Shown here: one piece after another, positions 34,978-35,565 of the stretch
Numbering within the stretch: the first letter of the stretch is position 1
Layout: every line of letters begins with the position of its first letter
Assembly: GCA_934438175.1 (NCBI GenBank)
Contig: CAKSBH010000002.1
Location: forward strand, 156,780 to 220,779
Origin: an uncultured Eubacteriales bacterium
GTDB taxonomy: Bacteria; Bacillota; Clostridia; Oscillospirales; UBA644
Direction of reading: 5' to 3'
Length of the DNA stretch: 64,000 bases
Position numbers and translations under genes: made by a program
Notes under the pieces: model-generated
The model's input: the letters and a program-made list of their open reading frames with translations, nothing else
Told to the model about the DNA's origin: nothing
The model's database searches: none

Positions 34978-35565
34978 GTGGATCTGGCCGAACATCTTTA
35001 CAGTGTACGGATCGTTTCTGCGGTTCCGAAATTTGCCGATTCCCTCATTGCCCTGCTTCCGCGCGACCGGTATGCGCCCGTGACGGTTGTTCCGGATGCC
35101 GCGGAGGCGAGGCGGAGCATGCTGGAAAACCCGGCGGATATCGTGGTTATCCATACGCCGCTTCCGGATGAGTTCGGAAACCGGCTGGCGTTGGATCTTT
35201 GCCGCAGCGGCGGCGCGGGCGTCTTGCTTCTGGTGCGCGCGGAGCATTATCCGGATGTGAACGCACGGGTGTCTCCCTACGGCGTTCTGGTGTTGTCCAG
35301 ACCCACATCGTCGTCGGTGCTTCTGCAGACGCTTTCGCTTCTGTGCGGCACGCGGGAGCGGCTGCGGCAGATGGAAAGGAAAACGGCTTCCCTGGAGGAG
35401 AAGATGGAGGAGATCCGCCTGGTGAACCGTGCCAAATGGCTGCTGATCGAACAACTGAAAATGACGGAGCCGGATGCACACCGGTATCTGGAGAAGACGG
35501 CGATGGACCGCTGTGTTTCCAAACGCAGTGTGGCGGAATCCATTATCAAACTGTATCAATCGTGA
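34978..35565 (+). CDS. ANTAR-domain RNA-binding antiterminator with degenerate receiver domain (NitR/AmiR-like)
   Basis: GTG start after GGAAGGAGG. C-terminal ANTAR helix pattern [42 protein letters not shown]. The N-terminal REC-like fold lacks the acidic pocket (see findings). Confidence 0.8.

What the first reader, a model, noticed from the sequence alone, without database searches (positions are those of the whole stretch)
34978..35565. The ANTAR regulator has a phosphorylation-dead (pseudo) receiver domain and sits directly behind a short glutamine synthetase
I aligned the N-terminal half by hand to canonical receiver domains. The acidic pair after beta1 is Ser-Ala (VRIVSAVPK). The phospho-acceptor Asp at the end of beta3 is His ([13 protein letters not shown]). 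The conserved Thr/Ser after beta4 is not evident (VLLLVRAEH). The beta5 Lys is Arg (VLVLSRP). No histidine kinase gene is present in the locus. The ANTAR half ([42 protein letters not shown]) looks intact. This resembles AmiR, a pseudo-receiver ANTAR controlled by sequestration by AmiC, and the glnA-nitR arrangement reported in solventogenic clostridia. The gene follows, 36 nt downstream and in the same operon, an unusually short (405 aa) type-I GS. My inference is that the signal is delivered by protein-protein contact rather than phosphorylation. The adjacent GS could play this role, in analogy to feedback-inhibited GS controlling TnrA/GlnR in Bacillus.
Basis: partly seen in the sequence, partly recalled or inferred. 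Interest (0 to 1): 0.58.

Follow-up and report, generated by a model that had tools for sequence, protein, structure and literature searches.

The report
Phosphorylation-dead ANTAR regulator behind variant glutamine synthetase
This gene encodes an RNA-binding antiterminator whose "receiver" half cannot be phosphorylated; it sits in, and probably switches on, a nitrogen-assimilation operon, and its always-adjacent glutamine-synthetase look-alike, which has lost a key catalytic residue, is the best candidate for the missing nitrogen sensor.

Summary
ORF 34978-35565 has an intact ANTAR domain. Its receiver-fold N-terminal half has Ser14-Ala15, His59, Val86/Arg87 and Arg108 where CheY has D12-D13, D57, T87 and K109. 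This is a family trait, not decay. In hundreds of clostridial relatives the phospho-site is Asn and the acidic pair is Ser-(Ala/Ser/Gly). No histidine kinase lies anywhere in the 64-kb window.

The gene belongs to the known NitR/AmiR kind of pseudo-receiver ANTAR regulator. I found its likely RNA targets. Three conserved hexaloop hairpins (GC-AAWGRC-GU) each overlap the 5' arm of a leader terminator. One precedes its own GOGAT-GS-ANTAR-pyrG operon. Two precede the divergent type III GS-asnB operon.

- The roughly 400-aa GS and the ANTAR gene are adjacent in 77/80 and 78/80 related loci; the other five lacked the flanking DNA to tell.
- This GS carries Lys in place of the catalytic Glu of the E flap (69/73 and 80/80).
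- It lacks Arg62 and the C-terminal ~25 residues.
- It has lost metal ligands in several lineages.

The specific TnrA/GlnR analogy fails at residue level.

Verdict: a known kind of regulator with a testable sensor hypothesis.

The parts
34978..35565 (+). ANTAR antiterminator with pseudo-receiver, 195 aa. Receiver fold covers residues ~8-111 (S14, A15, H59, V86/R87, R108). Coiled-coil helix 112-160. ANTAR domain 138-190.
33724..34941 (+). Variant type I-alpha GS, 405 aa. Metal ligands are intact. The catalytic E-flap Glu is replaced by Lys289 and the Arg62 equivalent is Gly61. An 11-residue loop deletion follows the His243 metal ligand (B. subtilis His245). The C-terminal ~25 residues are absent. 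It is the candidate sensor partner.
30157..30186 (+). Perfect sigma-70-type promoter (TTGACA-18-TATAAT with a TG extension) of the GOGAT-GS-ANTAR operon. Its position relative to the hairpin is conserved in most related loci.
30196..30215 (+). ANTAR-type hexaloop hairpin AAUGAGC-AAAGAC-GUUCAUU, starting about 7-10 nt after the -10 box. Proposed antiterminator and ANTAR binding site.
   Evidence: 29.6 bits, E=5e-7
30204..30258 (+). Intrinsic terminator in the operon leader (stem 30204-30249 plus U-rich tail). Its 5' arm contains the loop-3' half and the 3' arm of the hexaloop hairpin.
30283..33704 (+). Split archaeal-type glutamate synthase genes: GATase_2 30283-31374, Fer4+FMN Glu_synthase 31365-32879, GXGXG 32982-33704. 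They lie upstream in the same operon.
35577..37202 (+). pyrG (CTP synthase, a glutamine amidotransferase). It starts 11 nt after the ANTAR stop and is probably on the same transcript.
30074..30102 (-). Perfect sigma-70-type promoter (TTGACA-17-TATAAT) of the divergent type III GS operon.
30046..30065 (-). Hexaloop hairpin 1, UAAAGGC-AAUGGC-GUCUUUG, overlapping the 5' arm of terminator 1.
   Evidence: 32.4 bits, E=6e-8
30019..30055 (-). Terminator 1 of the type III GS leader (stem 30055-30026, U-run 30025-30019).
29996..30007 (-). Hexaloop hairpin 2, GGC-AAUGAC-GUC. The stem is weak (3 bp) and lies wholly inside the 5' arm of terminator 2.
   Evidence: 12.1 bits, E=0.32
29968..30007 (-). Terminator 2 of the type III GS leader (stem 30007-29979 plus U-run).
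26069..29950 (-). Proposed target operon: type III GS (27854-29950) and asparagine synthase asnB (26069-27646).

Best explanation
The gene encodes a NitR/AmiR-type ANTAR transcription antiterminator.

Shown:
- The N-terminal half keeps the receiver fold but lacks every acidic residue needed for phosphotransfer. This is conserved across a large clostridial family.
- The ANTAR half is intact.
- Three conserved hexaloop hairpins with the ANTAR signature (A at loop position 1, G at position 4, C-G and G.U closing pairs) overlap the 5' arms of leader terminators. One lies in front of the regulator's own operon (split GOGAT, variant GS, ANTAR, pyrG). Two lie in front of the divergent type III GS-asnB operon.

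Inferred from the established ANTAR mechanism:
- When the protein is active it binds and stabilises these hairpins. The terminators then cannot form and the nitrogen-assimilation genes are read through, including the regulator's own gene. This gives positive autoregulation.

Inferred, and the weakest step:
- Activity is set by protein contact, not phosphorylation. The most likely partner is the co-translated, always-adjacent GS paralogue.
- That GS has lost its catalytic flap Glu (Lys289), which fits a metabolite sensor that binds glutamine, glutamate or ATP better than an efficient enzyme.
- By analogy with AmiC-AmiR and NasS-NasT, it would hold the ANTAR protein inactive under nitrogen excess and release it under limitation.
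For: Pseudo-receiver. The pocket is remodelled but strongly conserved, with 'IN(T/A/S)PLPDE' and 'AEHYPD' loops. That argues for a retained function rather than decay.

RNA targets:
- The motif RGCAANGRCGTY occurs 4 times in the window against 0.44 expected; 0 of 100 shuffles reach 4.
- There are 117 matches in the window plus loci. Of these, 104 form hexaloop hairpins of at least 4 bp, and 93 of those are followed by a T-run.
- Covariation supports the stem: 84.7% of cells paired, 0 of 500 shuffles as high, and three pairs switch between AU and GC types.
- In 25 of 27 operon leaders the terminator shares bases with the hairpin.
- The core matches the eut ANTAR consensus AGCAANGRRGCUY at 11 of 13 positions.
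- Where GOGAT genes are absent, the motif sits directly before the GS-ANTAR pair.

GS partner:
- GS-ANTAR adjacency is seen in 77/80 genome loci; the other 3 lack upstream DNA.
- Searching from the GS side, 78/80 metagenome loci have ANTAR immediately downstream; the other 2 lack room.
- The flap residue is Lys in 69/73 and 80/80. More distant loci L082 and L083 also have it.
- 13/73 copies carry extra substitutions at metal ligands, and in a 14th (L030) nearly all checked catalytic residues are replaced, yet it still sits next to ANTAR.
- AmiC-AmiR and NasS-NasT are precedents for co-encoded sensor/ANTAR pairs.
- C. thermocellum has the same cluster, and deleting its type I GS is reported, by the paper's title, to deregulate nitrogen metabolism.
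Against: - No interaction was tested.
- Gene adjacency could simply reflect co-regulated metabolism.
- The window's own GS keeps all metal, ATP and glutamate ligands, so it may still be an enzyme, possibly with altered chemistry.
- The residues that B. subtilis-type GS uses to sense glutamine and bind TnrA/GlnR (Glu304, Arg62, thong helices) are not conserved. Any contact must therefore be of a different kind.
- The canonical ANTAR site has two hairpins 5-12 nt apart. Here each terminator has only one, so the binding mode is uncertain.
- In L083 a family member is not directly behind the K-flap GS.
- Whether the C. thermocellum GS has the Lys flap could not be checked.
Confidence: 0.55

Rival explanations
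1. The remodelled receiver pocket binds a small metabolite directly (glutamine, 2-oxoglutarate, a nucleotide or second messenger). The neighbouring GS is only a co-regulated enzyme.
For: The former active-site face is strongly conserved rather than degenerate: S14, N/H59, PLPDE and AEHYPD. An ANTAR regulator with direct ligand control is known: P. putida NasT binds c-di-GMP (abstract).
Against: This does not explain the near-universal, two-way GS-ANTAR adjacency. It also does not explain the loss of the catalytic flap Glu and of metal ligands in the linked GS. No ligand-binding motif was recognised by Pfam or NCBIfam.
Confidence: 0.2
2. The signal comes from another protein encoded elsewhere, for example a PII/GlnK protein or an orphan partner.
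For: PII proteins are the usual nitrogen-status transducers. One related locus (L083) carries an AmtB-PII fusion next to a family member.
Against: No PII gene was found among the 45 window ORFs scanned with Pfam. Apart from the GOGAT genes, the only partner that stays with the ANTAR gene is the GS.
Confidence: 0.1
3. There is no dedicated signal input. The protein is constitutively RNA-binding and acts only through its abundance, set by autoregulation, with nitrogen control exerted elsewhere. The GS is an ordinary, if divergent, enzyme.
For: The regulator lies downstream of its own target terminator, so dosage feedback exists. The window's GS retains all metal ligands.
Against: A pure positive feedback loop with no input cannot sense nitrogen. 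The strong conservation of a 110-residue non-catalytic domain argues for a regulatory role.
Confidence: 0.1
4. The receiver is still phosphorylated, at His59 or another residue, by an unlinked kinase.
For: The window protein has His at the acceptor position. The beta5 Lys is retained in most of the family.
Against: His59 is present in only 2 of 121 close relatives (the query itself and one other), and the family residue is Asn. The Mg2+-binding acidic pair is absent throughout, and the Thr/Ser is absent. No histidine kinase lies in the window.
Confidence: 0.03

Closest known systems
NitR (formerly GlnR) of Clostridium saccharobutylicum / C. acetobutylicum P262, and Clo1313_2030 of C. thermocellum
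   Same: An ANTAR regulator encoded immediately downstream of glnA and linked to GOGAT genes. It is proposed to antiterminate GS/GOGAT transcription under nitrogen limitation. The C. thermocellum cluster has the same gene order, including the divergent type III GS.
   Different: From my own knowledge, the C. saccharobutylicum glnA product is a full-length, active GS of about 443 aa. Here the linked GS is about 400 aa and has Lys in the E flap. I could not compare sequences with NitR itself. No antisense-RNA element was sought here.
AmiR-AmiC of Pseudomonas aeruginosa
   Same: Pseudo-receiver plus coiled coil plus ANTAR (fold match to 1qo0; sequence match). The regulator is controlled by sequestration by a co-encoded ligand sensor. 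The target is a leader terminator with a hexaloop hairpin.
   Different: There is no AmiC-type periplasmic-binding-protein homologue here; the candidate partner is a GS paralogue. Sequence identity is only about 20%.
NasS-NasT (Paracoccus, Azotobacter, Pseudomonas)
   Same: A REC-ANTAR protein without a cognate kinase. It is held by a co-transcribed sensor protein and released by the nitrogen signal (abstract of PMC3795266).
   Different: The sensor is a nitrate/nitrite-binding protein. The regulon is nitrate assimilation, not GS/GOGAT.
EutV/EutW and Rv1626 (PdtaR)/PdtaS
   Same: The best structural and sequence relatives. The hexaloop recognition code is the same, and the hairpin core matches the eut 13-nt consensus.
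   Different: Both are true phospho-accepting response regulators with cognate kinases. EutV needs two hairpins 5-12 nt apart, whereas here there is one hairpin per terminator.
Feedback-inhibited GS controlling TnrA/GlnR in Bacillus and relatives
   Same: GS acts as a nitrogen sensor that controls a regulator encoded in the same operon through direct contact.
   Different: Those regulators are MerR-type DNA binders whose C-tails insert into the GS active-site pore. That pore is formed by Glu304, Arg62 and the thong helices, which are all altered or missing in this GS.

Membership tests
ANTAR domain proteins (Pfam PF03861) | ANTAR domain scoring above the Pfam gathering threshold | tested here: met
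   65.1 bits against a cut-off of 27.3, residues 138-190
Phospho-accepting response regulators (CheY-like receiver) | (beta-alpha)5 receiver fold | tested here: met
   AF2 model with pLDDT 84 and five strand-helix units. Foldseek hits EutV, Rv1626, AmiR and many receivers.
Phospho-accepting response regulators (CheY-like receiver) | Phospho-acceptor Asp at the end of beta3 | tested here: not met
   His59 aligns to the Rv1626 Asp and to CheY D57. The family residue is Asn in 118/121 and 106/128.
Phospho-accepting response regulators (CheY-like receiver) | Acidic Mg2+-binding pair after beta1 | tested here: not met
   Ser14-Ala15. The family has Ser-(Ala/Ser/Gly) and no member has the Asp-Asp/Glu-Asp pair.
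Phospho-accepting response regulators (CheY-like receiver) | Conserved Thr/Ser at the end of beta4 and Lys at the end of beta5 | tested here: not met
   Val86/Arg87 stand in place of Thr. Arg108 stands in place of Lys, although most of the family has Lys there.
Phospho-accepting response regulators (CheY-like receiver) | Pfam Response_reg above the gathering score; cognate histidine kinase nearby | tested here: not met
   16.4 bits against 30.2. No HisKA/HATPase sensor kinase among the 45 ORFs scanned across the 64-kb window.
AmiR-type pseudo-receiver ANTAR regulators | Non-phosphorylatable receiver joined to ANTAR by a long coiled-coil helix | tested here: met
   helix 112-160; 1qo0 match
AmiR-type pseudo-receiver ANTAR regulators | Co-encoded AmiC-type ligand-binding partner | tested here: not met
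   No periplasmic-binding-protein-type gene is adjacent. The neighbours are GS and pyrG.
AmiR-type pseudo-receiver ANTAR regulators | Activity controlled by sequestration in a protein complex | not testable with these tools
   This needs a multimer prediction or biochemistry. Only co-inheritance with the GS paralogue could be shown.
NitR-type clostridial glnA-linked ANTAR | ANTAR gene immediately downstream of glnA on the same strand, linked to GOGAT genes | tested here: met
   36-nt gap in the window. The arrangement is conserved in 77/80 and 78/80 loci.
NitR-type clostridial glnA-linked ANTAR | Sequence orthology to C. saccharobutylicum NitR; glnA antisense RNA | not tested
ANTAR RNA substrates (Ramesh et al. 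2012 dual-hairpin motif) | Hexaloop with A at position 1 and G at position 4; conserved closing pairs; overlap with the terminator 5' arm | tested here: met
   Consensus comparison.
ANTAR RNA substrates (Ramesh et al. 2012 dual-hairpin motif) | Two hairpins (P1, P2) separated by a short linker of 5-12 nt | tested here: not met
   In the operon leader the single hairpin starts about 7-10 nt after the -10 box, leaving no room for P1. In the type III GS leader the two hairpins are 54 nt apart, each with its own terminator.
Catalytically standard type I-alpha glutamine synthetase | Gln-synt_N and Gln-synt_C domains; metal, ATP and glutamate ligands | tested here: met
   The residues aligned to B. 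subtilis E132, E134, E189, E196, H245, R316, R321, E333 and R335 are present in the window protein.
Catalytically standard type I-alpha glutamine synthetase | Catalytic Glu of the E flap (B. subtilis E304, E. coli E327) | tested here: not met
   Lys289 in 'SNKAP' aligns to 'GYEAP'. Lys is found in 69/73 and 80/80 linked GS.
Catalytically standard type I-alpha glutamine synthetase | NCBIfam TIGR00653 equivalog cut-off; full-length C-terminal thong | tested here: not met
   324.8 bits against a cut-off of 429.15. The alignment ends at B. subtilis residue ~418 of 443.
FBI-GS / TnrA-GlnR control | Glu304-Arg62 glutamine clamp and thong-helix pocket that binds a MerR-type regulator tail | tested here: not met
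   Lys289, Gly61 and a truncated C-terminus. The defining features are taken from PMC9249791. The regulator here is an ANTAR protein, not a MerR-type protein.

The most novel reading that the evidence does not exclude
The ~400-aa Lys-flap GS is not primarily an enzyme. It would be a dedicated nitrogen-status sensor, a repurposed GS, that binds the pseudo-receiver of the ANTAR protein and releases it under nitrogen limitation. The pair would form a widespread clostridial two-gene module. It would work like AmiC-AmiR in logic, with a GS-derived sensor and single-hairpin RNA switches as the output. It would be the main nitrogen regulator in the many Clostridia that lack NtrBC and TnrA/GlnR.
Probability: 0.4. 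Interest if true: 0.75.

Novelty: new variant of a known kind. Interest (0 to 1): 0.5.

Why it matters
How most Clostridia sense nitrogen status is still unclear, including abundant gut Oscillospiraceae and the biofuel organism C. thermocellum. NitR-type ANTAR proteins have been known for decades, but no input signal has been identified for them.

This analysis gives that question a concrete, testable form:
- The whole family has a non-phosphorylatable but conserved receiver.
- Its RNA targets are simple single hexaloop-terminator switches on GS, GOGAT, asnB and pyrG genes.
- It is inherited as a pair with a GS paralogue that lacks the catalytic flap glutamate.

If the GS paralogue is the sensor, it would be a second, independent case of a GS controlling gene expression by contact, this time through an RNA-binding antiterminator. 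It would also explain why deleting 'glnA' deregulates nitrogen metabolism in C. thermocellum.

Tried and rejected
- Rfam at gathering thresholds found only a tRNA in the window. It found no glutamine riboswitch, T-box or curated ANTAR family.
- NCBIfam has no model that matches the ANTAR protein.
- A fourth exact motif match at 6067-6078(-) lies inside the Indigoidine_A-like gene and forms no hairpin. I treated it as chance.
- A weak covariance-model hit at 4653-4678(-) (14.2 bits, E=0.068) is an A/U-rich hairpin around a Shine-Dalgarno sequence. I did not count it as a target.
- I looked for a P1 hairpin upstream of the operon-leader hairpin. The conserved -35/-10 boxes occupy that space.
- I tried to read Rydzak et al. 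2017 for the glnA-deletion phenotype. The paper is not held, and the citing papers give only the title and the ethanol/amino-acid phenotype.
- Literature searches found no paper reporting a GS-ANTAR interaction.
- A fused GS-ANTAR AlphaFold run was considered and dropped.
- The idea that the receiver is merely decaying was rejected, because the altered residues and surrounding loops are nearly invariant across 35-99% identity.
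Full report
**1. What is at the coordinates**

ORF 34978-35565 (+) starts with GTG behind a GGAGG ribosome-binding site and encodes 195 aa.
- Pfam finds a full ANTAR domain at residues 138-190 (65.1 bits, E=4.9e-18).
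- Pfam Response_reg matches only weakly, over residues 16-117: 16.4 bits against a gathering score of 30.2.
- NCBIfam has no model for the protein.
- As an internal contrast, the Spo0A gene in the same window (7301-8128, -) scores 58.4 bits on Response_reg.

**2. The receiver is a pseudo-receiver**

Sequence alignments agree.
- phmmer against PDB sequences gives Rv1626/PdtaR (1s8n, E=1e-13), EutV (6wsh), AmiR (1qo0) and NasR (4akk).
- In the Rv1626 alignment '[13 protein letters not shown]' lies under 'PDLVIMDVKMPRRDG'. That places His59 on the phospho-acceptor Asp and Arg108 on the beta5 Lys. Extending the same register places Ser14-Ala15 on Glu-Asp.
It gives S14=D12, A15=D13, H59=D57, R87=T87 and R108=K109.

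Structure agrees too.
- An AlphaFold2 model from a 33-sequence alignment has mean pLDDT 84.4.
- It shows five strand-helix units: beta1 8-13, beta3 55-59, beta4 81-87 and beta5 104-108.
- A 49-residue helix (112-160) then leads into the two remaining ANTAR helices.
- Foldseek's best PDB matches are EutV (RNA-bound form, TM 0.74), Rv1626 and AmiR.

**3. The substitutions are a family trait, not decay**

| Set | Acidic pair | Phospho-site | End of beta4 | beta5 position |
|---|---|---|---|---|
| Query plus 120 database relatives (121 sequences), 63-99% identity | Ser 119/121, then Ala/Ser | Asn 118/121 (His only in the query and one relative) | Val 114/121 | Lys 116/121 |
| 128 full-length representatives of 50%-identity clusters, 35-64% identity | Ser 106, then Ala/Ser/Gly | Asn 106, Asp 8, Ser 5, His 3 | Val 99 | Lys 101, Arg 20 |

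- The exhaustive search found 213 clusters at E<1e-30.
- No representative has the acidic pair.
- The surrounding loops 'IN(T/A/S)PLPDE' and 'AEHYPD' are nearly invariant.
- A remodelled pocket held under purifying selection suggests that this face still binds something.

**4. Genomic context**

The plus-strand operon reads as follows:

| Gene | Coordinates |
|---|---|
| Class II amidotransferase | 30283-31374 |
| Fer4+FMN glutamate-synthase domain | 31365-32879 |
| GXGXG domain | 32982-33704 |
| 405-aa GS | 33724-34941 |
| ANTAR | 34978-35565 |
| pyrG | 35577-37202 (11-nt gap after ANTAR) |
| purB and purA | follow pyrG |

- A type III GS (27854-29950) and asnB (26069-27646) are transcribed divergently.
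- Pfam scans of 45 window ORFs, spread over the whole 64 kb, found no sensor histidine kinase. The one HATPase_c hit is HtpG.
- The organism is a spore-forming Firmicute (it has Spo0A). Its nearest public relatives are gut 'Ruminococcus sp. CAG:382', Oscillospiraceae and Eubacteriales MAGs.

**5. RNA targets**

The 332-nt divergent intergenic region holds two perfect sigma-70-type promoters (12/12 matches each). Both leaders fold far better than shuffled controls, with z = -3.8 and -5.8.

A scan for A-N-N-G-N-N hexaloops closed by stems gave two results across 27 related intergenic regions.
- The operon leader has a conserved hairpin, AAUGAGC-AAAGRC-GUUCAUU, in every one of them.
- The type III GS leader has AAGGC-AAWGGC-GUCUU, usually twice.

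Supporting statistics:
- The motif RGCAANGRCGTY occurs 4 times in the window against 0.44 expected, and none of 100 shuffles reaches 4.
- In the window plus loci there are 117 matches. Of these, 104 form stems of at least 4 bp, and 93 of those are followed by a T-run.
- On 95 distinct hairpins, 84.7% of cells are paired against 68.1% in shuffles and 37-53% when the register is slid.
- Three stem pairs alternate between AU and GC types. The C-G and G.U closing pairs are invariant.
- A covariance model built from these hairpins scores 30043-30068(-) at 32.4 bits and 30193-30218(+) at 29.6 bits as the two best sites in the window. The second type III GS hairpin scores 12.1 bits.

How the hairpins relate to the terminators:
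- In the window the hairpin 30196-30215 shares its loop-3' half and its 3' arm with the 5' arm of terminator 30204-30249.
- The same mutually exclusive layout is found in 25 of 27 related leaders.
- In the type III GS leader, each of two tandem terminators (30055-30026 and 30007-29979) is overlapped by its own hairpin.

Comparison with known ANTAR sites:
- The core AGCAAAGGCGUUC matches the eut ANTAR consensus AGCAANGRRGCUY at 11 of 13 positions. It also matches the A1/G4 and closing-pair rules of Ramesh et al. 2012.
- That paper already reported ANTAR RNAs before glutamate- and glutamine-synthase genes in Clostridia.
- One difference stands out. The operon-leader hairpin begins about 7-10 nt after the conserved -10 box, so no upstream P1 hairpin can exist. 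EutV, by contrast, needs two hairpins 5-12 nt apart.

Where the GOGAT genes are absent, the motif sits directly before the GS-ANTAR pair, for example in L012, L015, L017, L018, L021, L030, L062, L066, L079 and L080. The regulator is therefore always downstream of its own switch.

**6. The neighbouring GS**

Adjacency:
- In 77 of 80 genome loci (ANTAR identity 45-71%) a roughly 400-aa GS lies immediately upstream. The other three loci lack upstream DNA.
- Searching from the GS side, 78 of 80 metagenome loci have the ANTAR gene immediately downstream. The other two lack room.

Sequence, compared with B. subtilis GS (4lnf, E=9e-98):
- The window protein keeps all metal, ATP and glutamate ligands.
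- It has 'SNKAP' where active GS has 'GYEAP'. The catalytic Glu304 of the E flap is therefore Lys289.
- The Arg62 equivalent is Gly61.
- Eleven residues after the His245 loop are deleted.
- The last ~25 residues are missing.

Conservation of these features:
- Lys at the flap is found in 69 of 73 genome-locus copies (Met in 3) and in 80 of 80 metagenome copies. It is also present in two distant loci.
- Fourteen of the 73 depart further: 13 have extra substitutions at metal ligands (for example E189A in six copies), and in the L030 copy nearly all checked catalytic residues are replaced, yet it still sits next to ANTAR.
- The protein scores below the NCBIfam GlnA cut-off: 324.8 against 429.15.

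According to Travis et al. 2022, three elements form the glutamine-feedback clamp and the TnrA/GlnR binding pocket: Glu304, Arg62 and the C-terminal thong helices. These are exactly the features altered here. The Bacillus-style mechanism therefore cannot apply as such. The changes are nonetheless concentrated in the part of GS that other bacteria use for regulation.

**7. Literature**

- Pseudo-receiver ANTAR proteins are a recognised class, with AmiR as the prototype.
- NitR of C. saccharobutylicum is an ANTAR antiterminator said to induce GS/GOGAT genes under nitrogen limitation.
- C. thermocellum has the same cluster: Clo1313_2030 ANTAR, 2031 type I-alpha GS, 2032-2036 GOGAT and 2038 type III GS. 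The ANTAR gene there has been likened to nitR.
- Deleting Clo1313_2031 'deregulates nitrogen metabolism', according to the title cited. From memory, nitrogen-assimilation genes rose despite high glutamine, but the paper itself could not be read.
- No held paper reports a GS-ANTAR contact.

**8. Mechanism**

Shown:
- a non-phosphorylatable receiver;
- an intact ANTAR domain;
- three ANTAR-type hairpin/terminator switches on the regulator's own operon and on the type III GS-asnB operon;
- obligate pairing with a Lys-flap GS.

Inferred from the ANTAR family:
- binding of the hairpins prevents terminator formation.

Inferred, at about 0.45 confidence:
- the GS paralogue senses nitrogen or energy metabolites and sequesters or releases the regulator, as AmiC does for AmiR and NasS does for NasT.

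Rivals are direct ligand binding by the remodelled pocket, another protein partner, no input at all, and cryptic phosphorylation.

**9. Verdict**

The gene is a member of the known NitR/AmiR kind. Its TnrA/GlnR analogy does not hold at residue level.

Noticed in passing
window 33724-34941 (+), residue Lys289: The GS next to the ANTAR gene has Lys where all active GS have the catalytic E-flap Glu. It also lacks the Arg62 equivalent and the C-terminal ~25 residues. This holds in 69/73 and 80/80 related loci. Thirteen of the 73 also lose metal ligands, and one further copy (L030) has nearly all checked catalytic residues replaced.
   Followed up: yes
window 30196-30215 (+); 30046-30065 (-); 29996-30007 (-): The ANTAR-type hexaloop hairpins occur singly, one per terminator, not as the canonical P1-P2 pair with a 5-12 nt linker. 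The operon-leader hairpin is at the very 5' end of the predicted transcript. The type III GS leader has two complete hairpin-terminator modules in tandem.
   Followed up: partly
window 35577-37202 (+); L081 3040-3118 (-): pyrG (CTP synthase) starts 11 nt after the ANTAR stop and follows it in many loci. In L081, where pyrG is a separate divergent gene, two hexaloop motifs precede it. CTP synthase therefore seems to belong to the same regulon.
   Followed up: partly
window 4653-4678 (-): A weak covariance-model hit (14.2 bits, E=0.068): hairpin AAAAAAC-AAAGGA-GUUUUUU whose hexaloop contains the Shine-Dalgarno sequence of an unannotated 200-aa ORF (4050-4652). It is possibly chance.
   Followed up: no
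window 31365-33704 (+) compared with L001-L003, L009, L010 and others: Most related loci have an extra ~1.6-kb gene between the FMN-domain and GXGXG-domain glutamate-synthase genes. That gene is absent from the window and from L004-L006, L008 and L014.
   Followed up: no
L030 6780-7886: A 376-aa GS-like gene in which nearly all catalytic residues are replaced (D53S, E132R, E134R, H245P, R321F, E333G, R335M) is still encoded directly upstream of the ANTAR gene and preceded by the hexaloop motif.
   Followed up: partly
L083 1-10585: One contig carries two ANTAR paralogues, a type III GS, an AmtB-PII fusion, a GlmS-like gene and a 402-aa Lys-flap GS that also has Phe at the Arg321 position. Here the GS is not immediately upstream of the family member.
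   Followed up: no
window 7301-8128 (-): Spo0A with a canonical receiver (58.4 bits on PF00072). It shows the organism is an endospore-forming Firmicute and serves as an in-window contrast to the ANTAR pseudo-receiver.
   Followed up: no
window 26069-27646 (-): Asparagine synthase (glutamine-hydrolysing) lies directly downstream of the type III GS. It is probably co-transcribed and so under the same tandem terminators.
   Followed up: no
window 33724-35565 (+): The GS and ANTAR ORFs are in the same reading frame, separated by one TGA stop and 12 codons. This is probably coincidental but was not examined for read-through.
   Followed up: no
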